Positions 21,971-53,755 of a stretch of 64,000 bases of DNA are shown here, piece by piece. Made by a program: the position numbers and the translations under genes. The notes under the pieces are model-generated. The model saw only the letters and a list, made by a program, of their open reading frames with translations. It did not search any database and had not been told where the DNA came from. The DNA comes from Dictyostelium discoideum (taxonomy: Eukaryota). Numbering within the stretch: the first letter of the stretch is position 1; each line of letters starts with the position of its first letter. The stretch lies in the NCBI GenBank assembly GCA_000004695.1, contig CM000152.2, positions 4,544,001 to 4,608,000 of the forward strand, written 5' to 3'.

Positions 21971-22041
21971 TGCGTATGCTGGGAATCGAACCCAGTTCGC
22001 ATCCGTGGCAGGGATGCATCATACCACTAGACCACATACGC
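21971..22041 (-). tRNA. tRNA-Gly (anticodon GCC), 71 nt
   Basis: The reverse complement folds as a cloverleaf: acceptor GCGTATG/CATACGC, anticodon arm CATCC-CTGCCAC-GGATG, T arm CTGGG-TTCGATT-CCCAG, discriminator A. A B-box-like GTTCGGAATTC about 30-40 bp downstream (plus coordinates about 21931..21942) is consistent with a Dictyostelium ex-B box. Confidence 0.85.
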
Positions 22042-22088
22042 TTTTTTGATATTTTGAAAAAAGATAACGTAATTGTATTTTTAAAAAT

Positions 22089-22149
22089 AGAAGATCGAAA
22101 AAAACAAACAATCTCTTTTTTTGATTATTTCATTTTTCATATAAAAAGC

Positions 22150-22184
<35 letters not shown>

Positions 22185-22190
22185 GGAACC
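22089..22190 (+). repeat. Short poly(A)-terminated retroelement-like fragment about 48 bp upstream of tRNA-Gly (candidate solo 3' module of a TRE5-type element)
   Basis: The sequence ...ctctttttttgattatttcatttttcatataaaaagcc is followed by A36. The same about 30-bp motif recurs in every unit of the 24053..25380 satellite. The position roughly 48 bp 5' of a tRNA gene is the known TRE5 target distance. This is an inference only. Confidence 0.35.
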
Positions 22191-22381
22191 CAAGTTAATC
22201 AGAAAATTTCCAGATTTTTTAACTTATTTAAGTAAAATAAAAAAAATAGAAAGAAAATAAGATGAAAATCACAAATATGTCATCAACATCAATCACGAAG
22301 CCGACGATAAAATAAAAAAGATTAAGAAAAAAGTGTGGACGAAAAAGATGTTATAATCAAAAGTAATAATACAATAGAAAG

Positions 22382-22430
<49 letters not shown>

Positions 22431-23820
22431 CTAACCCCTCTTTTAGAGACCGTGTAAAAAACTACAAATAAAATGAGATCTTGCATCTCAAGGAGAAGCA
22501 ACTAATAATTGCGTTATCCAATTCAAAAAAAAAAAGTATTTTCAAAAATAGCTTTGAATTAAAACCTTCACAGTTAATCCATTAAAGGAAATAAACAACA
22601 ATTATTAGTTTTACTTAATAATTATTTTAAAATATTGGTTGTAATTTCATTCTTCTAACATAAAATAGACTTTTTTTTATTTGAATCGGAATATAATATA
22701 TTTTTTTAAATAACATCATCACAATTTAAATTTAGTGTGATTAAAAATAAATTTGAGAGTCACTTTATTTTTTTTTTGGAAAATATCAAAATGCGAATTT
22801 AAATTTTAAAATGTAAAGTAGTAATTCTTTTTTTATTTATTTTGAATTACTTAAATAAAGAATTTTAATTTTAAAATATAGTGTATTATTATTATAATTA
22901 TTATTTTTTTTTAAAATATATTCAGTTTTAAATATGTTGGTATTTAAAATTAAATGAATTAAATATTGAAATTGTTGTTAATTATAAGAATTGGTCAAGG
23001 GTACTATATTCAGAAGATACAATAAGCTTGTCATGTTAATTCAAATTAATAATAAAGTATGTGTAAAATAAATATATGTAGTAATATTATCAGATATTTA
23101 AAATTAATGTTTTATTTGTTTTTATTTTTTAAGAATAAACACGATGACGCTATGAAATCAACAAAAAACAAATCGCATAAGTCGACTTCACCTTTAGAAA
23201 AGCGATGTGACAAAAATTCTAACAAAAGTTAAAACGAAACCTCAAATAACAAAACCATCACAATTATTTTTTTTTTTTTTTATTTTATTATAATATAATT
23301 AATCAGATTTTTTTTTTTTTTTTGATATAAATAAACTATTGTAGTATACAATTAGTATGTAATTTTTATTTATTTATTTTAGGTTTTTTAGTTTTTGTGA
23401 ATTTAAAATAGTATGTTATTTTAGATTAGGTAATTAATAATTAATTGGTGGTGTAATTGTTGGAATTGGTTCATTAGTGTTTATGCTCCATTCTTTTTTA
23501 AATTTTTTGATGGTTTCGGACCATTGGGTTTCTTTTTGAGTTTTTGTGAGGTTGTTTTTAATTGAGTATTGGTTAAAGTTTGTTTTTTTTTTTTTTTTTT
23601 TAATATTGGATTAACAAGATTGATATATGTCCATCTGTGTTAATACGAGTTTTATTTAATATTTATTTATAGGCTTATCATTTAAGCTGAAGGGTTATTT
23701 TAATCATATGAATTGATCAAAAGATATAATATTTGGGAGAGATGATTCTGGAATACAATAGTAATTAGCTGTTGTTTTTCTTAGCTTGATCGTTGAGGTG
23801 ATTAAAGTTTGATAAAGTAT

Positions 23821-23847
23821 TTAATTAATCAGATATCGAACCCATGA

Positions 23848-23881
<34 letters not shown>

Positions 23882-23930
23882 TAAAAGCGGTGTTAGAACC
23901 CATGACCTATAATAGATATTTACTAAAAAA
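23821..23930 (-). promoter_or_regulatory. Two ex-B-box-like elements downstream of tRNA-Arg, separated by a T28 tract
   Basis: On the minus strand the elements read AGGTCATGGGTTCTAACACC and GGTCATGGGTTCGATATCTG. Both approximate the pol III B-box GGTTCGANTCC, as expected for Dictyostelium external B boxes. Confidence 0.5.
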
Positions 23931-23933
23931 ATT

Positions 23934-24006
23934 CACCCATTGTGGGTCTCGATCCCACGACCTGCAGCTTAGAAGGCTGCCGCAATTCCAACTTTGCTAA
24001 ACGGGC
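23934..24006 (-). tRNA. tRNA-Arg (anticodon UCU), 73 nt
   Basis: The reverse complement is GCCCGTT-TA-GCAA-AGTTGGAA-TTGC-G-GCAGC-CTTCTAA-GCTGC-AGGTC-GTGGG-ATCGAGA-CCCAC-AATGGGT-G. All four stems pair, with two G-U wobble pairs in the acceptor stem. The anticodon loop is CTTCTAA. Confidence 0.8.
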
Positions 24007-24052
24007 TTTGATATTTTTTCATTTTTAATATCTTTAATAACTACTTATTTGA

Positions 24053-25316
24053 GAGTAAGAGAAAAAACATCAACAACAACACTTTTTTTATTTGATTATT
24101 TCATTTTTCATATAAAAAAAAGACTTAAAAAAAATAAAATAAAATACACTTAGAGTAAACTACTTTATTTCTTTATTTTATTGTAATTTATTTTTTTCTT
24201 TTTTTTGAAAATTTTGCGAAGCAAAATTGAAAAAAAAAAGGAAAAAATAATCAGTAAGAGAAAAAACATCAACAACAACACTTTTTTTATTTGATTATTT
24301 CATTTTTCATATAAAAAAAAGACTTAAAAAAAATAAAATAAAATACACTTAGAGTAAACTACTTTATTTCTTTATTTTATTGTAATTTATTTTTTTCTTT
24401 TTTTTGAAAATTTTGCGAAGCAAAATTGAAAAAAAAAAGGAAAAAATAATCAGTAAGAGAAAAATCATCAACAACAACACTTTTTTTATTTGATTATTTC
24501 ATTTTTCAGATAAAAAAAAGACTTAAAAAAAATAAAATAAAATACACTTAGAGTAAACTACTTTATTTCTTTATTTTAGTGTAATTTATTTTTTTCTTTT
24601 TTTTGAAAATTTTGCGAAGCAAAATTGAAAAAAAAAAGGAAAAAATAATCAGTAAGAGAAAAAACATCAACAACAACACTTTTTTTATTTGATTATTTCA
24701 TTTTTCATATAAAAAAAAGACTTAAAAAAAATAAAATAAAATACACTTAGAGTAAACTACTTTATTTCTTTATTTTATTGTAATTTATTTTTTTCTTTTT
24801 TTTGAAAATTTTGCGAAGCAAAATTGAAAAAAAAAAGGAAAAAATAATCAGTAAGAGAAAAAACATCAACAACAACACTTTTTTTATTTGATTATTTCAT
24901 TTTTCATATAAAAAAAAGACTTAAAAAAAATAAAATAAAATACACTTAGAGTAAACTACTTTATTTCTTTATTTTATTGTAATTTATTTTTTTCTTTTTT
25001 TTGAAAATTTTGCGAAGCAAAATTGAAAAAAAAAAGGAAAAAATAATCAGTAAGAGAAAAAACATCAACAACAACACTTTTTTTATTTGATTATTTCATT
25101 TTTCATATAAAAAAAAGACTTAAAAAAAATAAAATAAAATACACTTAGAGTAAACTACTTTATTTCTTTATTTTATTGTAATTTATTTTTTTCTTTTTTT
25201 TGAAAATTTTGCGAAGCAAAATTGAAAAAAAAAGGAAAAAATAATCAGTAAGAGAAAAAACATCAACAACAACACTTTTTTTATTTGATTATTTCATTTT
25301 TCATATAAAAAAAAGA

Positions 25317-25380
<64 letters not shown>
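24053..25380. repeat. Tandem satellite: 7 copies of a roughly 195-201 bp unit (last copy truncated), terminating in an A60 tract
   Basis: The unit core (agtaagagaaaaaacatcaacaacaac...ttgattatttcatttttcatataaaaaaaagac...gaaaattttgcgaagcaaaattgaaaaaaaaaaggaaaaaataatc) recurs with starts near 24053, 24253, 24454, 24650, 24849, 25047 and 25243. Copies differ by a few substitutions. Confidence 0.9.
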
Positions 25381-25383
<3 letters not shown>

Positions 25384-25659
25384 CCGAAAACATTCTTTCA
25401 GGGAATTTCCAGAATTTTAAATTTTTAAAGCCGAATAAAGATTTTAAAGAAAAAAAAAAGAAATGAATAAATTGGCAAATACAATAATGACAGTGTTAGA
25501 GACTCAAAACTAAATTAATTTAAAGTTAGTATGAGCTCAACAACGTAACAAATTCGCGCATCTCCATGTAAAAATATTTCATTTAATTTTTATTTTTATT
25601 TTTTAATTTTTTAATTTTTTATTTTTTCAGTCAAAAAATAAAAAATTAAATTAAAAAAA

Positions 25660-26418
25660 CACAGCAAAGAAAAATGCACCTTTAAAGCAAATTTAAAGAA
25701 AAGTTGATTTAAATTGGATTTAAATTGAATTTAAAGCCGCGTTTAAAAAATTCATTTTTAAGGTAATTTTTAAGGTAATTTTTAAGATATTTAAAAATGC
25801 CTTTAAAATTTGCTTTAAAATAAATTTTTAAGCAATTTTAAAGGTGATTTTAAAGGTGATTTTAAAGGTGATTTTTAAGGTAATTTTTAAGATAATTTTT
25901 AAGATATTTAAAAATACCTTTAAAATTTATTTTAAATTAATTTTAAATAGGATTTAAAGTAGATTAAAAGTAGATTTAAAGTGAATTTAAATTTCCTTTA
26001 AACATAAATTTAAGGTTTTTAATAAAAAAGATCTAATTTTAGCACAAAAAAATGGGGATAAAATATTCTATCATTTTTAAATTTTTCATCAAAGCAATCA
26101 AATGGTGTAATGGTTGTTGAGACTCCCCTTTGATAGAGGGTCGGCGGATCGAATCCCTTTTGGGTAATTTTTGAAAAATTAAAAAAAAATTTTAAAAAAT
26201 TTATCCGTTAAATAACGGATTCGAACTCAGGACCTCGCTTTTAAAGCCATTAAAAAGGTAATTTTAAAGGTAATTTTAAAGGTAATTTTTAAGGTGATTT
26301 TAAAGTAACCTTAAAAATTACCTTTAAAATTACCTTTAAAATTGCTTTAATTCAGGACTTTAAAGCAAATTTAAATTTAATTTAAAGCGAATTTAAAGGT
26401 GGTTTTTTCTTTGCTGTG
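25660..26418. mobile_element. 759-bp terminal-inverted-repeat element (non-autonomous DNA transposon-like), copy 1, nested inside the Skipper 5' LTR
   Basis: - Perfect 15-bp terminal inverted repeats: CACAGCAAAGAAAAA ... TTTTTCTTTGCTGTG.
- No ORF.
- Interior is built from short direct repeats (GGTAATTTTTAAG / GGTGATTTTAAAG / TTTAAAG).
- Central A-box-like (TGGTGTAATGG) and B-box-like (GGATCGAATCC; GAGTTCGAATCCG) tRNA-derived motifs.
- The LTR sequence resumes exactly after the insertion, by comparison with the intact 3' LTR. Confidence 0.75.
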
Positions 26419-26954
26419 AAATTAAATTAAATTAAAATTTAAAAAAATAATAAAAATTCTGATTTTTCGGTTTAGTTGGAATAACGCCCTTACTTTTAAT
26501 TATCTCTTTTATGTATGTTTACTTTTATGATATTAGTCTTTCACTCTTTCTATCCTTCATATTAAAAAACATTACTTTAAAGATTGGACTGTTTGATAAA
26601 AGATTGAACAAATGTGACAATGGATTGAAGATTAGTGTGAGTGACTTTTACACTTTTTTTTTTCTAATTTTAACATAAAACAAATACATTAAAACAAATA
26701 ATTAGATACAATCCTTATATTTCGTATACAATGACACCTCATGATGAAGAAGTCGACTCTTCAGATTAGAGGAATAACAGTAGTATTTAAAACAAAATAA
26801 AAATGCATTACAATGGCCCTTCTGTTTGCAAGATTAACGCTGTACTGCTTAGGCGGTACAACGACACTTCCTACTCACATTGTAAACATGCATCTTTTAT
26901 AAAGTAATATAAAACAAGATTGTATCAATTAATTTAATAATAATGCTCAAATAC

Positions 26955-27230
26955 AAAGACACCACAATATAAATTATTAGTGGAATAACAGTTAAACAAA
27001 GACACCACAATATAAATTATTAGTGGAATAACAGTTAAATAAAGACACCACAATATAAATTATTAGTGGAATAACAGTTAAATAAAGACACCACAATATA
27101 AATTATTAGTGGAATAACAGTTATATTGATGCATTGTTATAATTAAAATAATTTAAGATAATATTTATTATCAATTAAATAATATAAAGACACCACAATA
27201 AAAATATATTAGTGGAATAACAGTTAACAT
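26955..27230 (+). repeat. Tandem 41-bp repeats (5 adjacent copies plus one diverged copy) in the 5' untranslated leader of the Skipper-like element
   Basis: The unit aaagacaccacaatataaattattagtggaataacagttaa recurs head-to-tail from about 26955 to 27165. A further copy lies at 27187..27230. Confidence 0.85.
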
Positions 27231-27378
27231 ATATTAATACTTATATTTAATTATTTAATTAAAAATTAAATTAAATTAAATTAAATAAATTAAATTAAAT
27301 TATATAATTAAATTATGTAAATTAAATTAAAAAATTAAATTATAAAATTAAATTATATTTAATAAATTTTATATATAA

Positions 27379-28542
27379 TTGTTGGTGAAAGTCATGTCAT
27401 CAACTACTACTCCTTCAAAGAAAGCCATCCGTAAAGCCAAAGTGTCTTCCACCGCCAAACGTGCCGCTGAAGTGACAACCGCCTCCGATGATGCTATTAC
27501 TGTTCAAGTAAAATCAAAAAAGACTCTTCGTCCCACTGAAGTTGATGATGAAATTTATTCAACTGAAAGCACTGATGTATCCGACGTCGAAGTCAGAGAG
27601 AAAGTGCCAAAGAAATCAAAGACCAATTCCATTGAAGCTAAAACCATTGACGCTTTAAAAAATGCTGCCACTGCTGTCATCTTCATGAATCTCTTTACCA
27701 TCCACTGCTCCCAGAATGGTGTTGAACCAACCTTGAAGACCATTATGGACAATGGTGCTGCATCAAATGAATTATTTCAATTGCTTCAACCTACCCACAA
27801 TGAATCAGTTAAGAACAACGATAAAATTGAAGGTGAAACATTGAAGAAGCTAATCCACCGTAACTTTAGATCCAAGACTTTGGTTCCATTCAAAACTGAC
27901 TACGAAGCTGCCAACACTAAAGTAGTCGAAGCTATTAACCATCGTAACTGCTACTCAGCCCAAGATGTTATAAAAAACATCGAAGCCATTATGAGTTACC
28001 ACAATGTAATTAATCCGGTGTATCTCATCCATGGTACTGCTGAAGTTCAATTAGAGTATCTAAGATCAATTTTAGATAATAATATCCTTGCTTTGTTAAA
28101 GATGGTCGTACCAGACTGGTTACAAACTGATGTTGCAATCAAACTCAACACTCAAACCGATATCACCGAGTGTCGTGAAGCCATCACCGAGTTGGTTCTT
28201 AACAATGCTGATAAGTTCTCGAGAAGAAGACCTTCCGATTCCGCATCGAATACTGATGAGAAGTTTCCATTAAAAAAGAATCATGCTACTCCAAATCATA
28301 ACTCTCATAACAGGAATTCCTTTGATGCTCAAGCTGATAAGATTAGAGCTGCAATATTACCCGAAATAAGAAAAGACTCTAAGGTAGACCTCAAAAAGAT
28401 AAGAAGCAGTTTCATCGTTTACCGTCAAAGCAAAGGCTACTGTCTCAATTGTGGTAAATCAAATCACTCCACATCTACATGTAGAATTGATCCGGTCGAT
28501 GCCAAAGCCAATCCAGGTCCATCAGCCAAAAAGCAACAATGA
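27379..28542 (+). CDS. Skipper-like Gag (387 aa) with a C-terminal CCHC zinc knuckle
   Basis: The motif CLNCGKSNHSTSTC (CX2CX4HX4C) lies near the C-terminus. The ORF ends in TGA at 28540..28542. Codon usage is less AT-biased than host genes. Confidence 0.85.
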   Translation: MLVKVMSSTTTPSKKAIRKAKVSSTAKRAAEVTTASDDAITVQVKSKKTLRPTEVDDEIYSTESTDVSDVEVREKVPKKSKTNSIEAKTIDALKNAATAVIFMNLFTIHCSQNGVEPTLKTIMDNGAASNELFQLLQPTHNESVKNNDKIEGETLKKLIHRNFRSKTLVPFKTDYEAANTKVVEAINHRNCYSAQDVIKNIEAIMSYHNVINPVYLIHGTAEVQLEYLRSILDNNILALLKMVVPDWLQTDVAIKLNTQTDITECREAITELVLNNADKFSRRRPSDSASNTDEKFPLKKNHATPNHNSHNRNSFDAQADKIRAAILPEIRKDSKVDLKKIRSSFIVYRQSKGYCLNCGKSNHSTSTCRIDPVDAKANPGPSAKKQQ

Positions 28543-31500
28543 CTCGATGAAGGTGATGAGTCCAAGTCAAAGATTTTAAATAAAAATTATAAAATTTCTC
28601 AATATCATCACCTTGAGGATAATGATTACCCAGTGAACAAAGATTCACTTTATACTCTTAACTCTTTTTATAATCAAAACATTGTTAAACAGTTACATCA
28701 ACAAAGCCAGCAACATGATGTTCATAAAAACATCAACAAACTTAAAGAATACGTCAAAGACTCATATGGTATAAAACTAGTTCCTGATACAACCGTTCCA
28801 ATTCCAAAAGCTGTTGAATCAGAGATGAAGTATAAACCACAGAAGATTGAATTTAATACTCCAACAGAGTTAACAAATGTTCAAGATAAAAACTATACTG
28901 TAAACATATTCAATCGTCCAAAGATATTAAATTCTAGTAAAGAATTAATTAACGATGAAGAAGATGAATTGCTTTACACAATTAAATTCGATAAAGAAAC
29001 AAACAAACCAATCATCTCATTATTACATAGTACTGGTACAAGTGATACTGCTCTCATTCCGACTCTCAAATGTTTAATCGTTCCAAACAGAGAAAACATG
29101 GATAAACCCAAGATTATAATTAACTCTCATTCCAAAGAAAAACAATTCAAATTAATTCTCGATACTGGAAGTAATGTTAGTTTAATCAATAAGAGGTTGA
29201 TTTCAAAAGATATGAAGAACCACGTTCACAAAACGAAAGCCAAGATTAACTTCCCGCTACTAGACGTCAAAGAAGAGTTTGTTGAACAAATCAATATACA
29301 AGTTAACAATGAAATTCATAACTTCTTTATTATAGAATTGGATATCATTGATGTACTTTTCGGTAATGATATCCTTAAGGACTCTATCATTAACCAAAAA
29401 GATAAAATAATCAAGTTGAATAATAGTACATACAAAATTAATTATCAACAGTCGAATCAATTACATTGTAATGTAAAAGCTCCAAGAAAACATGTTACCG
29501 TATCCAATGATAATCAGTCACAGTCACATAATCTACTAGATGATGATGAAGATATCAAAGAACAAGTTACAAAGTTTGTTGAAAGCATCCCATCACAACT
29601 TTGTGATATACTGGTTAAAACTAATCCAGAAGAAGAAGAGATACAAGCAGTACGTGATTTCATTAATGATTCATTCGAAGATGTTATAGTAGATAAACTT
29701 CCTGATATTCCAGATCAGATTAACAATTCCAGAAGAGGTAATATCATACATAATATCATAATAAAGAAAGATCAAGATGTTGAACCAACAAAGAAACAAA
29801 TCTATTATTCAACAGATGATCATAAGAGACATGTCGAAGAAATGGTTCTCAAATTTATAGATTTAGGTATTATCAAAAGATCAGAATCAAATTACTCATC
29901 TCCAATCATGTTATTAAAGAAGAGAGATTCATGGCGTGTAGTCCACGACTATCGTCAACTAAATAAAGTCACTGTTAGAGACGATCATCCATTCACTCCG
30001 GTTGATAGTCTTTTAAATCAATGTAAAGATTCAAAGCTTTTCTCAAAGTTTGACATGATTATGGGTTATTTCCAAGTGTTAATTAATCCAGAACACGCAA
30101 AGTACACCGCTTTCATTACACATATTGGTAAATTTGAATATACTAGAATGCCACAAGGTTTAGTCAACTCTCCATCCACATTCGCCAGATTGATGGTCGA
30201 AATATTTGGAAAAATCAAAAGTTTATTACAATACTTTGATGATCTTTTGGTTCATTCAAAACTCGACTACATGGTACATTTCATTGAAATCATTAGAATG
30301 CTTCTATATTGTAGAAAGTACCTATTATTCATTTCAAGAGAAAAGAGTGAAATGTTAAAGACTGAAGTTGATTTCCTTGGTTTTCACATTCATAAAGATG
30401 GTATATCTCCAAGAGCTGCAAAGGTTAGAGCTATCTCTGAGTTACCTGAACCAAGAAACGCCAAAGAAGCTGAAGCTGCATTAGGTCTTTTTGGATTCTT
30501 CAGGAGACACATTGAAAATTACGCTGAAAAAACCTATCACCTTTCCAAAGAATCAAAAGGAAAAAACAAGAAAACACTTTCTGATGAATCACTCAAAGAA
30601 TTCAATAATCTAAAGAAAGAGTTTGAAGGTGAAAATATTGTCGCTATTCCAATTGAACAAGATAACTCCATACCAATAGATATCGAAAAGGTTAAAGCAT
30701 CAACAGACATGCCAATCCATTCAGATAATAATAATCTAAACAATGGTAGTTTTCACTTGTATTGTGATGTTAGTGATAAAGCATTATCAGGTGTATTATA
30801 TCAAATTCAAGGTAATAAATTCAAAGTCATTTGGTTTCACAGTAGAAAACTTACTGATACTCAAAAGAGGTACAGCATAGGTGATAGAGAGTTCCTTTCA
30901 ATCATTGATTCTCTAAAGAAGTTTCAACATTTATTAATTGGTAAAAAGGTTTCAATCTACACTGATCACCAAAATCTTACATATATTATCAATAAGTCAA
31001 ACGATAAACCGTTCACAAAGAGACAAGATAATTATATGAAATATATTAAAGAATTTGATTATGAATTAAGACATATAAGTGGTAAAAAGAATGGTATAGC
31101 TGATTTTTTATCTCGTAAATATGATAATTTCCAATGGGATGAATCGTTTTTAAATAAAATTAAGGAAGAACAAATCAATTCTCAATGGCTATTAGAGATG
31201 AAAAAGAATCCAAATTTATGCATTGAAGAAATTAATGATATCTGTTACCTTAGTGAAGATGGGTTCAAGAAATTAATCATCATAGATAAAGAAACTATTC
31301 ATACCGTCATTAGAGAATATCACGATACCAAATATAGTGGTCATCACGCTTTAGATATCACATACAATAATATAAGACAAGATTACTATTTCAAAGAAAT
31401 GTTTTCTATTATCAAGAGGTACATAAAGTCTTGTGCAACATGTCAATTGAACATTAACCGTAAAGATAATGGTATACTCCAAAGTTTAGAAATTCCCTTT

Positions 31501-32826
31501 GAAGTTTGGAGAGATATATCAATCGATTTCTTATCGCTACCAAAAACAATGTATGCAATAAACGGATTTACAGTTGAAGTCGATCAAGTTTGTGTCATTG
31601 TTTGTAGATTATCTAAAATGGTTCATATAGTTCCATGTCATAAGACAATAGATGCCCAACATACCGTTCAATTATTGTTGAATCATGTGTTCAGACTCCA
31701 TGGTTATCCAAGAACAATCGTCTCCGATAGAGATCCAAGATTCCTTTCAGAAATATGGGAGAGATGGGCAAAGACGATGGATTCTAAACTCAAGATGACT
31801 GTGGCACACAGAGCACAAGCTGATGGTCAAACTGAAAGAATGAATAGAGAAATTATTAGAATATTAACTAAAGCCTCAACAGAGTATGGGGAGAATTGGT
31901 CAGATATCATTCCACTTATTGAATTTGCAATGAACTCATCAATGAGCAAGTCTACAAAGATGTCACCATTCCAAATCGTTTATGGATTCAATCCACCAAC
32001 TCCCGTTAATCATTTCAATTCATTAACAAAGACTCGTATACCAATGAGCAACATCAAAAAGATTGTCCGTGATAATATACTAGATGCTCAAATCAATGCT
32101 CAAAAGTATTACAACCGAGGTCGTGGTGATGTTATCTTCGTAGTCGGAGAAAAGGTGATGGTTAAAAGAAAATTCTTCCAAACTAATCTTTCAAAAGATC
32201 TAATCTCTCACAAACTTGAATCCAAGAATTGTGGACCATTCATAATCACTGCCGTTCATGGTAATAATGTAACACTCGATTTAGTAGGTTATCCAAAGAA
32301 ACACAATGTGTTCAACAAAGATCAAATCGTAAAACTATACGAGGACAGTGAGTGGTTAAGAGAAGAGATATCGATGCCGGAACCTGAGGAGATGGACGAA
32401 GCAAGTTACGAAGTTGAAAGTATTCTCAATCACGATAAAGTCAAAAAGATGTACCTAGTGAAGTTCAAAGGTTACCCAGAACCTGAATGGATCAAAGAAG
32501 TCGATACAGACTGTGAAGAGTTAGTCAGAGAGTATTGGAATAACGTGCAGAAGAAACAATTGAACTCAAGAAGAGAAAGAGAGAATGTAACTACAGAAGC
32601 CGTTGAGCCAATTGTGTCACCTCCACTCTCCCAAGAAGTTCAAAGTTCTCAAACATTGCAACCAATTACTCCAAGACAACAAAACTCCATCTCAAATCAA
32701 AGAAACCAATCAAAGAAAAGAAAATCAAGAAATCAAAATACTTCAAGTGATGATGATGAACTTGATCTTAGTTTACAAATTAAAACAACTAGATCAGGAA
32801 GAAAAGTTACACCCAAGAGTTTATAG
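28543..32826 (+). CDS. Skipper-like Pol polyprotein (PR-RT-RNaseH-IN-chromodomain), in the same frame as gag directly after its UGA. Has no ATG of its own (the ORF track start at 28633 is GTG)
   Basis: - Protease LILDTGSNVSL.
- RT motif LQYFDDLLVHS.
- Integrase zinc finger HHALD...CATCQ.
- DDE core (DFLSLP...VDQVCVIVCRLSKMVHIVPCHK...).
- Chromodomain YEVESILNHDKVKKMYLVKFKGYPEPEWIKEVD.
- The frame is open from 28543 onward. Confidence 0.85.
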   Translation, partial: LDEGDESKSKILNKNYKISQYHHLEDNDYPVNKDSLYTLNSFYNQNIVKQLHQQSQQHDVHKNINKLKEYVKDSYGIKLVPDTTVPIPKAVESEMKYKPQKIEFNTPTELTNVQDKNYTVNIFNRPKILNSSKELINDEEDELLYTIKFDKETNKPIISLLHSTGTSDTALIPTLKCLIVPNRENMDKPKIIINSHSKEKQFKLILDTGSNVSLINKRLISKDMKNHVHKTKAKINFPLLDVKEEFVEQINIQVNNEIHNFFIIELDIIDVLFGNDILKDSIINQKDKIIKLNNSTYKINYQQSNQLHCNVKAPRKHVTVSNDNQSQSHNLLDDDEDIKEQVTKFVESIPSQLCDILVKTNPEEEEIQAVRDFINDSFEDVIVDKLPDIPDQINNSRRGNIIHNIIIKKDQDVEPTKKQIYYSTDDHKRHVEEMVLKFIDLGIIKRSESNYSSPIMLLKKRDSWRVVHDYRQLNKVTVRDDHPFTPVDSLLNQCKDSKLFSKFDMIMGYFQVLINPEHAKYTAFITHIGKFEYTRMPQGLVNSPSTFARLMVEIFGKIKSLLQYFDDLLVHSKLDYMVHFIEIIRMLLYCRKYLLFISREKSEMLKTEVDFLGFHIHKDGISPRAAKVRAISELPEPRNAKEAEAALGLFGFFRRHIENYAEKTYHLSKESKGKNKKTLSDESLKEFNNLKKEFEGENIVAIPIEQDNSIPIDIEKVKASTDMPIHSDNNNLNNGSFHLYCDVSDKALSGVLYQIQGNKFKVIWFHSRKLTDTQKRYSIGDREFLSIIDSLKKFQHLLIGKKVSIYTDHQNLTYIINKSNDKPFTKRQDNYMKYIKEFDYELRHISGKKNGIADFLSRKYDNFQWDESFLNKIKEEQINSQWLLEMKKNPNLCIEEINDICYLSEDGFKKLIIIDKETIHTVIREYHDTKYSGHHALDITYNNIRQDYYFKEMFSIIKRYIKSCATCQLNINRKDNGILQSLEIPFEVWRDISIDFLSLPKTMYAINGFTVEVDQVCVIVCRLSKMVHIVPCHKTIDAQHTVQLLLNHVFRLHGYPRTIVSDRDPRFLSEIWERWAKTMDSKLKMTVAHRAQADGQTERMNREIIRILTKASTEYGENWSDIIPLIEFAMNSSMSKSTKMSPFQIVYGFNPPTPVNHFNSLTKTRIPMSNIKKIVRDNILDAQINAQKYYNRGRGDVIFVVGEKVMVKRKFFQTNLSKDLISHKLESKNCGPFIITAVHGNNVTLDLVGYPKKHNVFNKDQIVKLYEDSEWLREEISMPEPEEMDEASYEVESILNHDKVKKMYLVKFKGYPEPEWIKEVDTDCEELVREYWNNVQKKQLNSRRERENVTTEAVEPIVSPPLSQEVQSSQTLQPITPRQQNSISNQRNQSKKRKSRNQNTSSDDDELDLSLQIKTTRSGRKVTPKSL

Positions 32827-33302
32827 TCCACCTCTGAGCCATAGCTAGCCTAAAGAAGGAAGGGGAAGGTGTTAGAGACTCAAAACTAAATTAATTTAAA
32901 GTTAGTATGAGCTCAACAACGTAACAAATTCGCGCATCTCCATGTAAAAATATTTCATTTAATTTTTATTTTTATTTTTTAATTTTTTAATTTTTTATTT
33001 TTTCAGTCAAAAAATAAAAAATTAAATTAAAAAAAATTAAATTAAATTAAAATTTAAAAAAATAATAAAAATTCTGATTTTTCGGTTTAGTTGGAATAAC
33101 GCCCTTACTTTTAATTATCTCTTTTATGTATGTTTACTTTTATGATATTAGTCTTTCACTCTTTCTATCCTTCATATTAAAAAACATTACTTTAAAGATT
33201 GGACTGTTTGATAAAAGATTGAACAAATGTGACAATGGATTGAAGATTAGTGTGAGTGACTTTTACAGACAGAATCAACAGAAACATTGGCAGATAAAAT
33301 CA

Positions 33303-34060
33303 CACAGCAAAGAAAAATGCACCTTTAAAGCAAATTTAAAGAAAAGTTGATTTAAATTGGATTTAAATTGAATTTAAAGCCGCGTTTAAAAAATTCATTT
33401 TTAAGGTAATTTTTAAGGTAATTTTTAAGATATTTAAAAATGCCTTTAAAATTTGCTTTAAAATAATTTTTTAAGCAATTTTAAAGGTGATTTTAAAGGT
33501 GATTTTAAAGGTGATTTTTAAGGTAATTTTTAAGATAATTTTTAAGATATTTAAAAATACCTTTAAAATTTATTTTAAATTAATTTTAAATAGGATTTAA
33601 AGTAGATTTAAAGTAGATTTAAAGTGAATTTAAATTTCCTTTAAACATAAATTTAAGGTTTTTAATAAAAAAGATCTAATTTTAGAACAAAAAAATGGGG
33701 ATAAAATATTCTATCATTTTTAAATTTTCATCAAAGCAATCAAATGGTGTAATGGTTGATGAGACTACCCTTTAATAGAGGGTCGGGGGATCGAATCCCT
33801 TTTGGTAATTTTTGAAAAATTAAAAAAAAAAATTTTAAAAAATTTATCCGTTAAATAACGGCTTCGAACTCAGGACCTCGCTTTTAAAGCGATTAAAAAG
33901 GTAATTTTAAAGGTAATTTTAAAGGTAATTTTTAAGGTGATTTTAAAGTAACCTTAAAAATTACCTTTAAAATTACCTTTAAAATTGCTTTAATTCAGGA
34001 CTTTAAAGCAAATTTAAATTTAATTTAAAGCGAATTTAAAGGTGGTTTTTTCTTCGCTGT
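33303..34060. mobile_element. 759-bp terminal-inverted-repeat element, copy 2 (about 97% identical to copy 1). Lies 35 bp downstream of the Skipper 3' LTR and abuts a non-LTR retroelement fragment
   Basis: Same termini (CACAGCAAAGAAAAATGCACCTTTAAAG ... AAAGGTGGTTTTTTCTTCGCTGTG) and same internal organisation as copy 1. It differs by scattered substitutions and indels. Confidence 0.75.
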
Positions 34061-34730
34061 GATGACATAAAGAAACTGGAGAACGTTAATGCCAACATGT
34101 TATTCAAAGGGGACAGGTGGGCTATCTCAAAAGAAAGGAGCAGAAGAGACTATGAAATTGGAGGCCTGGAACTCTGGAATAGGGACTTAGCATGGAGATA
34201 TCTACTCAAGGCACTTCCAAAACACCATGGGGAGAATTGCCACTCATGTAAAGAAGAAGAATCGTCTATGCACATCTTCTTCGAATGCAAATCAATAAAA
34301 CAGAATATCGACTCAATCTATCAAAAGGTCTGTAAAGACTCCAACAACACTTACCACGGTCCATGGAGCGAAAAAGTTCTCGGAAAACTACTCACACCAT
34401 TCTCATCAAATCTGATAGGAGCCATTATGGAATCGATATGGTACAGAAGAAATCAAATAAAATTCAACGATAACACTACAATAATAACAGAGAACCAAAT
34501 AATTCATAAAATCAAAAAAGCGAGAGATGCCGAATGGGATAGAACAAGAAAGATAGTAGAAAAACAACTACGTCAAGAACTAAGATGCACTGATAACCGA
34601 GAGTCAATCAATCGGACCGCATCAATAAAAAGAAGACTCGAAAAATTCAGCCACAACTGGAACTCGAAACTCATGACCATAAACATCCCGGAACACTTCA
34701 TACCATACTGCTCATATAACACCAACTACT

Positions 34731-34764
<34 letters not shown>

Positions 34765-34856
34765 ATAACAATAATAATAATAATAATAATAATATAATAA
34801 TATAATAATAATAATATAATAATAATAATAATAATAATAAAAATAAGAATAACAAG

Positions 34857-34904
<48 letters not shown>

Positions 34905-34920
34905 AAACTCTCCTAGAACA
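34061..34920 (+). mobile_element. 5'-truncated non-LTR (TRE/LINE-like) retrotransposon 3' end: ORF2 C-terminal portion (34097..34735), then a poly(A)/(AAT)n tail
   Basis: The ORF has comparatively GC-rich codon usage (gggacaggtgggctatctc...) like Dictyostelium retroelements. It has a Cys/His-rich C-terminal region (HHGENCHSCK...HIFFECKS...). It ends in A27 followed by (AATAAT)n and A35. The 5' boundary is the TIR element end at 34060. Confidence 0.5.
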
Positions 34921-35211
34921 CACTCAAATTGAGTGATGTTATTAAAAAAAAAAAAAACTACTTATTTGAAAATATTTAAATATTTAAAAATAAAAGATTA
35001 ATTATAAAATATTAAGATAAATTAAAATAAAAAATATAAATTACAATAACTTGTGTACAAATACTCATTACGTTAGTCCACTTTCGTTACAGGCTAATTA
35101 AACCAATAATTATGTGCATAAAATACTTTTCAATAAGTACCAAAAAGAATCTTAATACAAAGGACCTTTTGAAAAATGTTTTTTTATTGTTTATTTTTTT
35201 AAAAATTTAAT

Positions 35212-42991: not shown

Positions 42992-45900
42992 TTAACGATT
43001 GAGCCATCTAACTTTTTTGAAACCCCAGAAACTTAAACCAACAAAAATGAAAATGTAACCAAAGATAGCAGCAATATCGATATATCTCATGAATTTATGG
43101 AAACCATAAGTTAACATGAAATCATCACCATTTGTAATTGGACAATAATATTTAATCGCTATTTGAACACCATTTTCAATGATTGGAATTGGTACAGCAC
43201 CTTTATTATTTGTACAAACAAATGTTAAACCTGTGAATTCATTGGTACAAGATGCTTCCAAAGGATACCTGAGCCAGTCTAAATAATGACACCAATAATA
43301 TGCAGATGGATAATTTGGTCTTGCAATGACGAAACCACCAAATAATGTTGCCAATGATAAACCAATACCACATATTGTTGATGCCATAACTTCATTTGGT
43401 AAGCAAACCGCCAGACATAATGCAAACGCATCATACATAATATAGGTGATAATGAAAATGAATAGACAATACCAAAATTTAGATGAATGTCGACCGGAAT
43501 CCAGACCAGCAATCCAAAATGTTGGAATAATATAAAGAATACCAGTTGATAGAATAAATGGATACGATGTTAATACATATGATATCATATATGCCGTTGA
43601 ATGATAGAAACCTGCGGTAACTTCACGATAGAATACACCTCTTTCTAATACTGTTGTTGGAATATTACCAATTGCGACCATACCGGCAAAAAGGAACGAA
43701 AAGAAGAGTAATGAAACACGAGATCTTGCATCCTTTTGTTCATAGTCCATACGAACAAATAGTGTACCTAATAGGACTGCCAACAATATTGAACGAAGAC
43801 AATTTGAAACGAATATTGCTGGACGCCTCAACCGAGATAACCAACTTCTCATACAAAGTGCGCGGAATTGTGTCATCCATGATGAAGCAAACCTTGAATC
43901 ATACGTTTTAACTACAAAGTCATCAGGTATTAATTGTCCTTCCATAATTTCATATTCTTTTTTACAAATATTAGATTCAAAATATGCCTTCTTTGCATCA
44001 AGATGTTCTTGTTCACCATTTGGACCTTCAACCATTTTACCTTCATCAGCTAATGTCATTACGAAATCAGCAGGATTAATATGTGGTTTAATATGCATAC
44101 CTAATTTATCACAATAATCTAAAATCACACTTGACTGATTACCCAATGGCCCAAAATAAATTGTTTCACCACCTTTTTTTAGTAATAATAATTGGTCAAA
44201 GAATTCGAAAATTGCAGCAGATGGTTGATGTACTGTACAAATTACAGTTCTATTCATTACTTTGGCAATTTTATTAACTACATCAATTACTTTAAATGCG
44301 TCACCAGAGTCTAAACCACTTGTTGGTTCATCAAGGAAAAGAATTTCTGGATTTGAAGCTAATTCAACACCAATATTTACTCTTTTTCTTTGCGATACTG
44401 ATAAACCATTTCCAAGTACACCAATCTTTAAATCTTTAATACTTGATAGACTTAAAACTTCAACGATCTTATCAACAAAGATCTCTCTTTCTTCTTTAGT
44501 AACTTCAGGTGGTAGTCTACATCTTGCACTGAATGCAATCGCTTCTCTAACTGTTTGTGTTGGTGGTAAAACATCCATTTGTTCAACATATGCTCTTATT
44601 CTATTTGTAAATTCAGAAGGTGGTTTACCATTAATTAAAATTTCACCAGTGATATGGCCACCAGTTTTTCTTTGAGCTAAAACATCTAATAATGTTGATT
44701 TACCTGCACCTGATGGTCCCATTAATGCTAACATCTATAATAAAAAAATAAAATTAATAATTAGTAATAAATAAATTAAACAAAAGAATATTTTTAAAAA
44801 ACATACTTGACCAGGTTTAACATAACCATCAATATCAGTTAATAGTTGTAATCTTTGACTTTTCTTTTTCTTTGGATTGTCTGGATCATCAGCTTTTACA
44901 TCAACAGCATAACAAAGTTTTTTAAATTGTAAATAACTACCAGTTTCTGAACTTATATCTTTTTGAGAGGTACTTATTGGTTTTTGTTTTGAATGATTAC
45001 CATTTTTTGAAGGAGTATTAACCATTGGTGATAAATTTGTTAATGGGGAATTAACCATTGGTGATAGAGTCGAAGGTGTTTTAACTTTTCTTCTTTTTAT
45101 ATTATTACCGGATCCTGATAAATTATTATTATTATTGTAATTGGGAGATGTTAATGGTGATTTCATATCAATTACAGTATCATCGTCATAGTTTGAAATA
45201 TCAGCATTATCATCATTATCATCACTAACTCTTTCTAATGCTTCAGTAGTAACTTTACAATTTGGCTCTTCATCTTCTTTACAAACAATAACTTTTTTCT
45301 TTTTCTTTAATTTCTTTACTGCTAATTTGGATTTTTTATCTTCAAAATTTAAATATTTCAAAGCAAAGAAACAAACTGAATAAAAGAATACAATATAAGC
45401 ACCTAAAATTGCATAAACAATCCATTTGAAATAATCTGGGTTATTAATACCAAATGCATCCATAATTTGTTCACCAGATGTATATTGACAAACTTGATTA
45501 CCACCGAAACCTTCTGGATATGGTAATAGATTTTGAGGAGTTCTTGGTGGTATTAATTCAGAATCTTTACAACCATACGCTTGATATGTAAATTCATTAA
45601 TTGATAAACCTTGGAAAATCCATGTATAGGGTGATATATAATATAACCAAATCCACCAACCTCCAATATCATTCTTTGGTGCCGTGAAACCTGAAAATAA
45701 TAACCAAATTGAAAGTATTACTGATGCTGTTACATTTGCAATTTCAATTGTTGGTGAAATTGCTGCACACATTTTAGCAAATGATAATGATAAATTATCA
45801 GTTCTAAAAAAAAAAAAAAAAAATTAGGATTTATAAAAATAAATACTTGAATAAATTAATTAAAATAAAAATACATACATAAATAATAAAATCATAAAAT

Positions 45901-46532
45901 AAACAAACCTAATGAAAACTGGCCTAAGATTTGCTAGCCAATAAACAATTGGACCAAAGAATGCGACTTCAATTAAACCAGCGGGAATATCACAAATGAT
46001 ACTTGAAATAAAGTATGCACCAGTTTTATAATAATGTAATGCTTTTTGAGAATAAAATACTTTTCTTTCACCAAAGAATGAATTAACAGCGGCAAATGAA
46101 GAGAAAATAATTGTTGTCATAATAAAGAATAAAAGACCAAATCTTTCCATACCACCACTTTGATTATGACCAATTCTCCAATAGAGTGTACCTAATAATA
46201 ATCCAAAGAAAATTCCTTTAAAAACACGAGTTGCAAAATTATAATAATTTCTACTAATCATAATGAAACCCCTCTTTAAACAAATTTTAGTTTGATAACC
46301 AATACCATGTGGATACATTCCTAATTCTTTAGCTGTACTATCTACTAAGACTTTTGGTTTATTATCATCAACAATACCATCTTTATTTGCATCCATCTTT
46401 TCCATTAATTCAAGATAAATATCTGATTCTCTATATGCTTTAACAAAATCATCACTAGTTTTACATTTTGGTGGATGAATAAATGAATATCTTTCTGGTG
46501 CATCTACAACTTCCTCTATTTTACATTTTTTT

Positions 46533-46566
<34 letters not shown>

Positions 46567-47572
46567 ATTAAAATTTAAAATTAAATGTTATTAAAACTTA
46601 CGAAAGAATTCAGCAGGATTATTATGAGATGGACATGCAAAACCTAATTTTTTAAAATAGCCTAATGCTCTATTCATTGGACCAAAATAACAAATTTTAC
46701 CTTTACTCATAATCATTAAATTATCAAATAATGAAGTTAATTGAACACTTGGTTGTAGTAAAGTGATGAGTGCAGGTGAATAACCATATGTTACAAACTT
46801 TTTAACATCACTTAAAATTTCGAAACTTGTTGAAGAATCTAAACCTGATGTTGGTTCATCCATTAATAATAGATTACTACCTTTAATAACACCAACACCA
46901 ATTGTAACTCTTTTCTTTTGACCACCTGATATACCTCTAATGAAATTATCACCAACCAATGTATTTTCTGCATGTTTTAAACCTAATAGTTTCATACAAT
47001 TATCAACGCTTACTTGTTTTTCTTCACGGGTGAGTTCTTTTTTACCTAAACAATCCAATGCGAATCTAAATGTTTCTTTTACAGTTAATGTCGGTACATG
47101 AATATCATCTTGAGTTACATATGAAATATCACGATGGTGATTTTTATGATTGATTGGATGACCATTAAATAATAATTCACCTTCAAAATGTTTATCTTTT
47201 AATTGACCTGCTAACATTTGGAAAATGGTTGATTTACCACAACCAGGAGTACCTAAAATTAATGTCATTTGTTTTGGTCTTAAAAAAAATGAAACATCAT
47301 CTAATAATTTAATTTTAACTTTTTTATTTTCTCTATGTTTTACTGTATATGTTGCATTTCTACAATAAACATATAAACCTGTTTTATCCTCTGGTCTAGT
47401 TTGTTTAATCTTTTTTGTTAATTCATCATTTTCATGATTTGGCATTAATTCATCTAATGGAATTGGGAAATATTCATCATCTTCTTCTCCTTCATGCTCT
47501 TTTGCAATTTGATAAATACTATCTTCAAAATCATTTTCTTCATCTTTATGTTTTATATTATTATTATTATTG

Positions 47573-47652
<80 letters not shown>

Positions 47653-50565: not shown

Positions 50566-50597
<32 letters not shown>

Positions 50598-53668: not shown

Positions 53669-53755
<87 letters not shown>

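What the first reader, a model, noticed from the sequence alone, without database searches (positions are those of the whole stretch)
24053..25380. Seven-copy roughly 198-bp tandem satellite ending in A60, apparently derived from a tRNA-proximal poly(A) retroelement tail
Each unit contains the motif ttgattatttcatttttcatataaaaa. The same motif, followed by a poly(A) tract and a related downstream sequence (cct..gaa.ac...atttccaga.ttttaa), lies about 48 bp upstream of tRNA-Gly at 22117..22230. The array therefore looks like an amplified 3' module of a TRE5-like element (C-module-like) rather than a random AT-rich repeat. It sits between two tRNA genes and the Skipper insertion. Arrays this long and this regular are unusual outside centromeric and rDNA regions.
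Basis: partly seen in the sequence, partly recalled or inferred. Interest (0 to 1): 0.5.

Follow-up and report, generated by a model that had tools for sequence, protein, structure and literature searches.

The report
Repeated promoter module of TRE5 retrotransposon
The 199-bp array is the tandemly repeated 5' promoter module (the "A-module") of a tRNA-gene-targeted TRE5 retrotransposon of Dictyostelium discoideum, a feature already described for this element family, so it is not a new satellite or an amplified 3' tail.

Summary
The array is real. It has six full units of 199 bp (98.5-100% identical), a 73-nt seventh partial unit, and a run of 61 A. The interpretation needs correcting. The array starts at position -47 upstream of tRNA-Arg(UCU) and is transcribed away from it. 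It is the 5' end of one TRE5-type non-LTR retrotransposon spanning 24053-34955. A 14-bp target-site duplication flanks this element, a Skipper-like LTR element is nested inside it, and the whole block is absent from the same site in another strain.

The unit is about 78-80% identical to the ~199-bp 5' module of a primer-verified TRE5-A copy. It shows no similarity to C-modules. The "poly(A)" is an internal A-run found at the same place in every related element examined: partial A unit, A-run, then 5' UTR and ORF1 start. It is not a retroelement tail.

Other copies carry 0.46, 1.46 or at least 6 units. The same insertion in an independent assembly has 4.46 units and A38, so copy number varies. 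The motif near tRNA-Gly belongs to a second, deleted TRE5-A copy at position -48.

The feature is already known and of low interest.

The parts
23934..24006 (-). tRNA-Arg(UCU), the integration target. Its 5' end faces the array.
   Evidence: ARAGORN; Rfam tRNA 59.2 bits.
24039..24052 (.). Left copy of the 14-bp target-site duplication AACTACTTATTTGA.
   Evidence: This 14-mer occurs exactly twice in the 64-kb window, at 24039 and 34956, the two predicted junctions.
24053..24053 (+). Extra G in front of AGTAAGAG, at position -47 from the tRNA. It is not part of the repeat unit, where a C precedes AGTAAG internally.
   Evidence: Sequence. The independent full-length relative L003 has the same extra G at 6605 between its duplication and AGTAAGA. 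That it derives from the RNA cap is an inference.
24054..25246 (+). Six full 199-bp A-module units (unit 6 is 198 bp).
   Evidence: About 78-80% identical to the 5' A-module of primer-verified TRE5-A (L006 1905-2103).
25247..25319 (+). Seventh, partial unit (unit positions 1-73, ending ...catataaaaaaaagactt).
   Evidence: Every related element has the same partial unit just before the A-run (L003, L005, L006, L010, L011).
25320..25380 (+). Internal A-run (A61) at the junction between the A-module and the B-like 5' UTR. It is not a tail.
   Evidence: TRF. The homologous run is A38 in L009, A22 in L003, A33 in L006, A30 in the window Gly element and A44 in L005.
25381..25475 (+). B-module-like 5' UTR (cctccgaaaac...atttccagaatttt...) and an ORF1-start remnant (ATG at 25463). 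An internal deletion junction follows at about 25472-25478.
   Evidence: 83.6% identical to L003 6722-6794, which lies just upstream of and across the L003 ORF1 ATG. ATG position.
25488..25492 (.). Left copy of the 5-bp duplication (TGACA) made by the nested LTR element. The right copy is at 34063-34067.
   Evidence: Removing 25493-34067 restores the ORF2 frame ..KYNNDIKKLENVN.., which matches L003 ..LYINDIADIKKLENVN...
25493..34062 (+). Nested Skipper-like Ty3/gypsy LTR retrotransposon with gag 27379-28542 and pol 28633-32826. It is not part of the array.
   Evidence: RVT_1, RNase H and integrase domains. Weak Chromo hit, E=2e-4. Terminal repeats. The two-ORF organisation is that of Skipper per PMC5633606 and PMC5006619.
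34068..34735 (+). C-terminal remnant of TRE5 ORF2 (zinc-finger region, still an open frame), with the stop codon at 34733-34735.
   Evidence: Translation. All seven hits at E<=0.001 are Dictyostelium proteins, mostly short TRE ORF2-derived fragments. 82-98% nucleotide identity to copies in L001, L002 and L003, all beside tRNA genes.
34734..34941 (+). 3' UTR: A29, an (AAT)n stretch, A41, then a 44-nt terminal module with the hairpin CACUCAAAUUGAGUG.
   Evidence: Fold -9.2 kcal/mol, z=-3.3. L003 has CACCCAAAUUGGGUG, a compensatory change.
34942..34955 (+). The true oligo(A) tail (A14) of the TRE5 element.
   Evidence: It is followed directly by the right copy of the duplication.
34956..34969 (.). 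Right copy of the target-site duplication AACTACTTATTTGA.
   Evidence: The empty allele in L004 joins the tRNA-Arg spacer directly to sequence matching window 34970 onwards.
21971..22041 (-). tRNA-Gly(GCC), the target of the second element.
   Evidence: The published D. discoideum primer Gly(GCC)rev (PMC3159450, quoted) is read in the window sequence at about 21975-21994 (by eye).
22089..22535 (+). Second element: a heavily deleted TRE5-A copy. It consists of a 62-nt partial A unit, A30, a B-module with an internal deletion, A44, a C-module and an A11 tail. It starts at -48 and is flanked by the duplication GTATTTT(T/C)AAAAAT (22075-22088 and 22536-22549).
   Evidence: The B part is 91-95% and the C part 89% identical to the primer-verified TRE5-A locus L006. 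C-module positions C38, A35, C26 and T15 of Siol 2011 all match. Primer Rep-108 matches 15/16 at 22279-22294.

Best explanation
The array is the tandemly repeated 5'-terminal A-module of a TRE5-family non-LTR retrotransposon of Dictyostelium discoideum. In TRE5-A this module is the RNA polymerase II promoter for the element's plus-strand RNA. The element integrated by target-primed reverse transcription at position -47 upstream of tRNA-Arg(UCU), in divergent orientation, and made a 14-bp target-site duplication. Its layout is: G, six A units, a partial A unit, an internal A-run, a B-like 5' UTR with the ORF1 start, a large internal deletion, the ORF2 C-terminus, a 3' UTR with a terminal hairpin, and an A14 tail. 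A Skipper-like LTR element later inserted into it. The family is related to TRE5-A but distinct from it, and fits TRE5-B best. Elements of both families begin exactly at a unit boundary (AG(T/A)..AGA). This suggests that the boundary is the transcription start, so RNAs started in the first unit carry all downstream units into new copies. Copy number also changes in place: 4.46 versus 6.46 units at this one insertion in two assemblies, probably by unequal recombination or replication slippage. Shown here: anatomy, homology, position, duplications, the empty allele and the copy-number difference. Inferred: promoter function (from the TRE5-A literature), the start site at the unit boundary, the cap origin of the extra G, and the mechanism of expansion.
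For: Position and orientation:
- The array starts 47 nt from the 5' end of tRNA-Arg on the opposite strand.
- This matches the published primary TRE5-A site, 47+/-3 bp upstream (PMC5391098), and the opposite orientation (PMC5911963).

Single insertion:
- The 14-mer AACTACTTATTTGA occurs only at 24039 and 34956.
- Strain locus L004 has the same tRNA-Arg with an unoccupied site.

Homology to the TRE5-A A-module:
- L006 is TRE5-A by published qPCR primers: Rep-109 matches 29/29 and Rep-108 matches 26/26 with one indel (PMC4559204).
- Its 5' end beside tRNA-Thr is one 199-bp unit, a partial unit, A33, the B-module and the ORF1 ATG.
- The window unit aligns to it at 79.7% over 295 columns and 164/211 in a global alignment.
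- The local alignment score is 114 against 24.5+/-3.7 for shuffles, with 0 of 300 shuffles reaching it.

Same architecture in the window's own family:
- L003 is a full-length relative with its own duplication. It has 0.46 unit (93.6% identical), A22, the 5' UTR and the ORF1 ATG.
- L011 3298-3582 has 1.46 units at 96-98% identity.

Multi-copy arrays recur:
- L011 has at least 6.0 copies of the 199-bp TRE5-A A-module in front of a 444-aa ORF1.

Independent assembly:
- L009 has the same insertion with 4.46 units and A38.

No other reading fits:
- The array has no ORF of 40 aa or more and no credible Rfam match.

Function:
- The literature describes a 200-bp A-module with promoter activity for plus-strand RNA (PMC3159450; PMC5633606).
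Against: - No reference consensus of TRE5-A, TRE5-B or TRE5-C could be searched. The family assignment (TRE5-B-like) rests on indirect published criteria only.
- Identity to the TRE5-A A-module is only about 78-80%, and promoter activity has not been shown for this variant.
- The statement that DRE carries one or multiple A modules (Marschalek 1992) is from memory, because the paper was not held. It is backed here only by the L011 array.
- The element is internally deleted and interrupted, so the array may be functionally inert at this locus.
- The 4.46 versus 6.46 difference could be an assembly error in one of the two sequences.
Confidence: 0.9

Rival explanations
1. One reading: the array is an amplified 3' (C-module-like) terminus of a TRE5 element, and the A60 is its retrotransposition tail.
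For: Each unit, and the copy near tRNA-Gly, has the motif followed by an A-rich or poly(A) stretch, which looks like a 3' end.
Against: - The homologous unit lies at the 5' end, upstream of the ORF1 ATG, in primer-verified TRE5-A and in L003.
- The true TRE5-A C-module, validated by the four Siol 2011 positions, and the 3' module of this element's own family show no similarity to the unit beyond shuffles. Scores were 14 against 12.4+/-2.0 and 10 against 9.8+/-1.7.
- No target-site duplication follows the A61. The duplication and the A14 tail lie 9.6 kb further on.
Confidence: 0.03
2. The array arose from repeated independent insertions of a short 199-bp SINE-like retroelement at the same -47 hotspot.
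For: TRE5 elements do re-hit the same tRNA site. L003 shows two successive insertions at one tRNA-Phe site.
Against: - Successive insertions leave a copy of the duplication between the elements. L003 has TTCATTACAAA three times.
- The array has none. It has an exact 199-bp period and identical junctions, with units up to 100% identical.
- Only a degenerate A-rich stretch lies within each unit.
Confidence: 0.02
3. The array, or its copy number, is an assembly artefact such as a collapse or expansion of a repeat.
For: Two assemblies of the same insertion disagree: 6.46 versus 4.46 units, and A61 versus A38.
Against: - The array is present in both assemblies, with flanks 99.57% identical.
- Unit 3 of the window carries three private substitutions, which argues against simple duplication by an assembler.
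- Comparable arrays exist at another locus, L011.
- The existence of the array is therefore solid. Only the copy number is uncertain.
Confidence: 0.15
4. It is a host satellite or minisatellite unrelated to mobile elements, lying near a tRNA gene by chance.
For: AT-rich tandem repeats are common in this genome.
Against: - The start is exactly at -47.
- The duplication encloses the array together with the ORF2 remnant.
- The block is absent from the L004 allele.
- The unit is homologous to TRE5 5' ends at six other tRNA-linked loci.
Confidence: 0.01

Closest known systems
A-module of DRE/TRE5-A (Dictyostelium discoideum tRNA-gene-targeted non-LTR retrotransposon)
   Same: - About 200-bp unit at the tRNA-proximal 5' end.
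- Followed by an A-run, the B-module and the ORF1 start.
- About 78-80% sequence identity.
- Occurs in one or many tandem copies (L011 has at least 6).
- Element start at about -47 in divergent orientation.
   Different: - The window element is not TRE5-A itself. TRE5-A ORF1/ORF2 primers do not match it or its full-length relative L003.
- L003 ORF1 is only 26-42% identical to TRE5-A ORF1 in the aligned stretches.
- The 3' end has no B-module duplicate and no TRE5-A-type C-module.
TRE5-B (and TRE5-C), the low-copy sister families of TRE5-A
   Same: - Published criteria (PMC3159450): no 3' B-module, and for TRE5-B no C-module, with ORF1 only about 25% identical to TRE5-A ORF1.
- The window element and L003 fit these criteria, and they have the same integration preference.
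   Different: - No reference sequence was available, so TRE5-B versus TRE5-C is not settled.
- The terminal 44-nt hairpin module shows a short resemblance to the start of the TRE5-A C-module (taaact..c.tc..tagaga).
Mouse L1 5'-UTR monomers (A, F, Tf and Gf types); comparison from general knowledge
   Same: - Tandem ~200-bp promoter units at the 5' end of a non-LTR retrotransposon.
- Variable copy number, with a partial unit at one end.
- Transcription is thought to start within or at the units.
   Different: - Unrelated sequence and host.
- This is an analogy of mechanism only, not membership.

Membership tests
TRE5 (tRNA-gene-targeted non-LTR retrotransposon, upstream class) | Integration about 47+/-3 bp upstream of a tRNA gene | tested here: met
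   The element's first nucleotide, 24053, is at -47 from the tRNA-Arg 5' end at 24006. The Gly element starts at -48. Criterion from PMC5391098.
TRE5 (tRNA-gene-targeted non-LTR retrotransposon, upstream class) | Transcriptional orientation opposite to the tRNA gene, with the 5' end proximal | tested here: met
   The tRNA is on the - strand and the element on the + strand, with its A14 tail distal. Criterion from PMC5911963.
TRE5 (tRNA-gene-targeted non-LTR retrotransposon, upstream class) | Target-site duplication and a 3' oligo(A) tail, the hallmarks of target-primed reverse transcription | tested here: met
   A 14-bp duplication unique to the two junctions, plus an A14 tail. Empty allele in L004.
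TRE5 (tRNA-gene-targeted non-LTR retrotransposon, upstream class) | ORF2 with endonuclease, reverse transcriptase and zinc-finger domains | tested here: inconclusive
   Only the C-terminal zinc-finger region survives in the window. The 82%-identical relative L003 carries RVT_1 and endonuclease-like ORFs.
A-module of TRE5-A/DRE | Module of about 200 bp at the extreme 5' end, upstream of the B-module and ORF1 start | tested here: met
   199-bp period. It is followed by an A-run, the B-like UTR and an ATG. The layout is the same in primer-verified TRE5-A.
A-module of TRE5-A/DRE | Sequence homology to the A-module of an authenticated TRE5-A | tested here: met
   79.7% over 295 columns against L006. 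Local score 114 against shuffles 24.5+/-3.7. L006 was authenticated with published primers.
A-module of TRE5-A/DRE | May occur as one or several tandem copies before a single B-module | tested here: met
   Window 6.46, L009 4.46, L011 at least 6.0, and L005, L006 and L010 about 1.4-1.46. The original statement (Marschalek 1992) is from memory only.
A-module of TRE5-A/DRE | RNA polymerase II promoter activity for plus-strand RNA | not testable with these tools
   Reported for TRE5-A (PMC3159450, PMC5633606). No expression data were available here.
TRE5-A proper (for the tRNA-Arg element) | TRE5-A ORF sequences, and a 3' end made of a B-module plus a C-module | tested here: not met
   The primers do not match the window Arg element or L003. 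ORF2 is followed directly by an A-run, (AAT)n, an A-run and a 44-nt hairpin module, with no B or C module.
TRE5-A proper (for the tRNA-Gly element 22089-22535) | B-module and C-module of TRE5-A | tested here: met
   The B part is 91-95% and the C part 89% identical to the TRE5-A locus L006. The four C-module positions of Siol 2011 (C38, A35, C26, T15) all match.
   The array is at the 5' end. Alignment scores to both kinds of 3' module equal shuffled controls.
Skipper (for the neighbouring LTR element) | Ty3/gypsy element with separate gag and pol ORFs and a C-terminal chromodomain | tested here: inconclusive
   Two ORFs with RT, RNase H and integrase domains. The Chromo hit has E=2e-4, which is below Pfam's cut-off. 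At 8.57 kb it is longer than the 6998-bp consensus, and its terminal repeats are rearranged (PMC5006619).

The most novel reading that the evidence does not exclude
The A-module array behaves as an unstable promoter minisatellite. One and the same insertion carries 4.46 units in one D. discoideum assembly and 6.46 in another. Elements begin exactly at a unit boundary, twice with an extra, possibly cap-derived G. Module dosage could therefore be a fast-evolving, heritable determinant of TRE5 transcription, and perhaps of the adjacent tRNA gene's chromatin, in parallel with mouse L1 monomers. A further speculative point: the constant layout of partial unit plus A-run in front of the B-module hints that the A-module was originally captured as a polyadenylated retro-copy.
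Probability: 0.2. Interest if true: 0.35.

Novelty: already known. Interest (0 to 1): 0.12.

Why it matters
It matters mainly as a correction. A conspicuous, very regular 1.3-kb tandem array in a gene-dense amoeba genome turns out to be the known multi-copy promoter module of a tRNA-targeted retrotransposon. It is not a new satellite or an amplified 3' tail. Three minor points have some value:
- The module is shared at about 80% identity between TRE5-A and a sister family.
- Copy number differs between assemblies at a single insertion.
- All copies start at a unit boundary, which gives a testable position for the transcription start.

Tried and rejected
- Full-text search for six 17-18-mers of the unit in the paper library found no hits.
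- Glöckner 2001 (PMC311061) and Schumann 1994 (PMC358675) are not held. Marschalek 1992 was not requested, so its statement on multiple A modules is cited from memory.
- A literature search for "A modules"/DRE returned only noise.
- The third protein search (PKS C-terminus, meant to fetch orthologous loci) was wasted. The candidate cap kept the true orthologues from being scored. Orthologous loci were obtained instead by exact look-up of window ORFs.
- A first permissive BLAST of the unit against the window was swamped by low-complexity hits. A fuzzy-regex primer search timed out.
- A coding reading was rejected: no ORF of 40 aa or more.
- A structured-RNA reading was rejected: only sub-threshold Rfam noise.
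- The idea that the sequence after A61 is an older element's 5' end with A61 as a tail was rejected, because no duplication lies between them in three independent cases.
- TRE5-A membership of the Arg element was rejected on the primer and 3'-end tests.

Full report
**Observation**

The array exists as described. TRF reports 24054-25337 with period 199, 6.5 copies and 99% matches, followed by a pure run of 61 A at 25320-25380. The anchor AGTAAGAGAAAAA lies at 24054, 24253, 24452, 24651, 24850, 25049 and 25247. Units 1, 2, 4 and 5 are identical. Unit 3 has three private substitutions, and unit 6 lacks one A. The seventh copy ends after ...catataaaaaaaagactt. The related block near tRNA-Gly is also present. 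The array holds no ORF of 40 aa or more and no credible Rfam match.

**Context**

The window is Dictyostelium discoideum DNA. GC content is about 14-38%. It carries a polyketide synthase gene, ABCG transporter genes and a Ty3/gypsy element. The published D. discoideum primer Gly(GCC)rev (PMC3159450, quoted) can be read in the tRNA-Gly sequence at about 21975-21994. All protein relatives are from D. discoideum assemblies. tRNA-Gly(GCC) lies at 21971-22041 and tRNA-Arg(UCU) at 23934-24006, both on the minus strand.

**The array is the 5' end of one large insertion**

- The array starts 47 nt from the 5' end of tRNA-Arg, on the opposite strand.
- The 14-mer AACTACTTATTTGA occurs exactly twice in the window. 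One copy ends at 24052, just before the array. The other starts at 34956, just after an A14 tract.
- Between the two copies lie, in order:
  - an extra G (24053);
  - 6.46 A units;
  - A61;
  - a 5' UTR-like segment with an ATG at 25463;
  - a nested LTR retrotransposon (25493-34062) with its own 5-bp duplication TGACA;
  - the last ~223 codons of a non-LTR ORF2, still an open frame;
  - a 3' UTR made of A29, (AAT)n, A41 and a 44-nt module with a hairpin;
  - the A14 tail.
- Removing the LTR element and one TGACA copy restores the ORF2 frame ..KYNNDIKKLENVN... The full-length relative L003 reads ..LYINDIADIKKLENVN...
- In another strain (L004) the same PKS, tRNA-Gly and tRNA-Arg neighbourhood has an unoccupied tRNA-Arg site. 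It joins directly to sequence matching window 34970 onwards.
- Position -47, divergent orientation, a duplication and an A tail are the published hallmarks of TRE5 elements (PMC5391098; PMC5911963).

**What the unit is**

- Locus L006 is a bona fide TRE5-A. Published qPCR primers match it: Rep-109 29/29 and Rep-108 26/26 with one indel (PMC4559204). It has a 444-aa ORF1.
- L006 starts about 47-48 nt upstream of a tRNA-Thr. Its 5' end is one ~199-bp unit, a partial unit ending ...catataaaaaagactt, A33, the B-module (cctgggaaccaagttaat...) and the ORF1 ATG.
- The window unit aligns to this at 79.7% over 295 columns and 164/211 in a global alignment. The local score is 114 against 24.5+/-3.7 for shuffles.
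- The literature describes a 200-bp A-module at the 5' end of TRE5-A with promoter activity for plus-strand RNA (PMC3159450; PMC5633606). The unit is therefore an A-module homologue.
- Against the TRE5-A C-module and against the 3' module of the window element, the unit scores no better than shuffles. The C-module was validated by the four positions mutated by Siol 2011, C38, A35, C26 and T15.

**The "poly(A)" is internal**

- The same order (partial A unit, A-run, cct...atttccaga...ttttaa, ORF1 ATG) is found in several places:
  - the window Arg element (A61);
  - the window Gly element (A30);
  - L003, a full-length relative with its own duplication TTCATTACAAA (A22);
  - L005 (A44) and L006 (A33);
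  - L010 and L011, as far as the partial unit and, in L011, the A-run.
- In none of the TSD-checked cases (window Arg and Gly, L003) does a duplication follow the A-run.
- L003 shows what successive insertions look like: the duplication appears three times.
- In TRE5-A the 3' copy of the B-module is also preceded by an A-run, directly after the ORF2 stop. The A-run is therefore part of the module junction.

**Copy number**

- The number of A units before the A-run varies:
  - 0.46 in L003 and the window Gly element;
  - about 1.4-1.46 in L005, L006, L010 and a second element in L011;
  - at least 6.0 in front of a TRE5-A ORF1 in L011, where the locus edge cuts the array;
  - 6.46 in the window.
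- L009 is the same insertion in an independent chromosome-scale assembly. It is 99.57% identical over 20.3 kb, with the same duplication and the same nested LTR element. It has 4.46 units and A38.
- The array is therefore real. Its length either changes in place or is mis-assembled in one of the two sources.

**Which family**

- The tRNA-Gly element (22089-22535) is a deleted TRE5-A copy. It has the duplication GTATTTT(T/C)AAAAAT. Its parts are a partial A unit, A30, a B-module with an internal deletion, A44, a C-module and A11.
- The tRNA-Arg element is not TRE5-A:
  - TRE5-A primers do not match it or L003.
  - L003 ORF1 is 26-42% identical to TRE5-A ORF1 in the aligned stretches.
  - The 3' end has neither a B-module nor a TRE5-A-type C-module.
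- By the criteria in PMC3159450 this fits TRE5-B best: TRE5-B and TRE5-C lack 3' B-modules, TRE5-B lacks the C-module, and TRE5-B ORF1 is about 25% identical to TRE5-A ORF1. This is an inference, because no reference sequence could be searched.

**Mechanism**

- Shown: the anatomy, homology, integration hallmarks, empty allele and copy-number variation.
- Inferred:
  - The units act as promoter modules, as in TRE5-A.
  - The unit boundary is the transcription start. Five independent elements of two families begin at AG(T/A)..AGA, and two of them carry an extra G that may come from reverse transcription of the cap.
  - RNAs started in the first unit carry the whole array into daughter copies.
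  - Unequal recombination or replication slippage changes the number in place.
- The closest analogy from general knowledge is the tandem monomers of the mouse L1 5' UTR.

**Verdict**

It is wrong about which end of the element this is and about the nature of the poly(A). Multiple A modules at the tRNA-proximal end of DRE/TRE5-A have been described before (Marschalek 1992, cited from memory). They are directly visible here in L011. The finding is ordinary for this genome.

Noticed in passing
window 25493-34062: An apparently intact Skipper-like LTR retrotransposon is nested in the TRE5 element, with a 5-bp duplication TGACA. It has gag 27379-28542 and pol 28633-32826 with RT, RNase H and integrase domains and a weak chromodomain hit. 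It lies on a chromosome arm beside tRNA genes rather than in a centromere. PMC5006619 lists only 2 full-length Skipper-1 copies. It is present in L009 and absent from L004.
   Followed up: partly
window 25493-26652 versus 32869-34062: The terminal repeats of the LTR element are permuted. Calling the three repeat segments a, b and c: the left end reads a (167 bp), c (768 bp), b (234 bp). The right end reads a, b, 27 bp, c. Segments a plus b total about 400 bp, which matches the published 390-bp Skipper LTR. The 768-bp segment c therefore looks like an extra sequence, lying inside the left LTR and again after the right LTR. The element is 8.57 kb against a 6998-bp consensus. This is unexplained.
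   Followed up: partly
window 23838-23910 (minus strand, downstream of tRNA-Arg): The direct repeat GAACCCATGACCT (B-box-like, ex-B region) flanks a 46-bp insert. On the minus strand the insert reads taacaccgcttttaggt plus A29. It looks like an extremely 5'-truncated TRE3-type retro-insertion with a duplication. L004 has only one copy of the repeat.
   Followed up: partly
window 62291-64000: tRNA-Leu(UAA) on the + strand is followed, about 100 bp downstream, by a GC-richer element (37.6% GC). This element has a tandemly duplicated ~58-bp 5' segment (62470-62567) and a 416-aa ORF (62693-63943) with no Pfam match and no similarity to TRE5-A ORF1. The position fits a TRE3 element, again with a repeated 5' module.
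   Followed up: partly
window 34898-34941; L003 13790-13836; L004 10728-10762: The 3'-terminal hairpin of this TRE5 family is kept by compensatory changes: CACUCAAAUUGAGUG in the window, CACCCAAAUUGGGUG in L003, and CACUUAUUAAGUG in the L004 Gly-site element. This parallels the essential C-module hairpin of TRE5-A (PMC3159450).
   Followed up: partly
L003 5117-13860: The duplication TTCATTACAAA appears three times (5117, 6594 and 13850). This documents two successive TRE5 insertions, a TRE5-A fragment and then the full-length sister-family element, at the same tRNA-Phe site.
   Followed up: yes
L004 9860-10790 versus window 22042-22550: The same tRNA-Gly(GCC) gene carries different TRE5 elements in two strains. 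The window has a deleted TRE5-A. L004 has a 5'-truncated element of a third ORF2 type, with the duplication GTATTTTATT. These are independent hits on one target.
   Followed up: partly
window 42992-47754 and 48822-53860: Two tandem, similarly organised ABCG-type (PDR-like) transporter gene copies lie on the minus strand.
   Followed up: no
window 26953-27123: A 43-bp unit repeated 4 times (99% identical) lies in the leader region of the LTR element, upstream of gag.
   Followed up: no
L005 5440-6020: A TRE5-A-type ORF2 end (..SLFK*) runs into about 60 A and then directly into a B-module that continues into ORF1 and RT ORFs. This is either two elements joined at the A-run or an element whose 5' end lies in the A-run. 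It hints that the A-run is a recombination or template-switch site, or a second start site.
   Followed up: no
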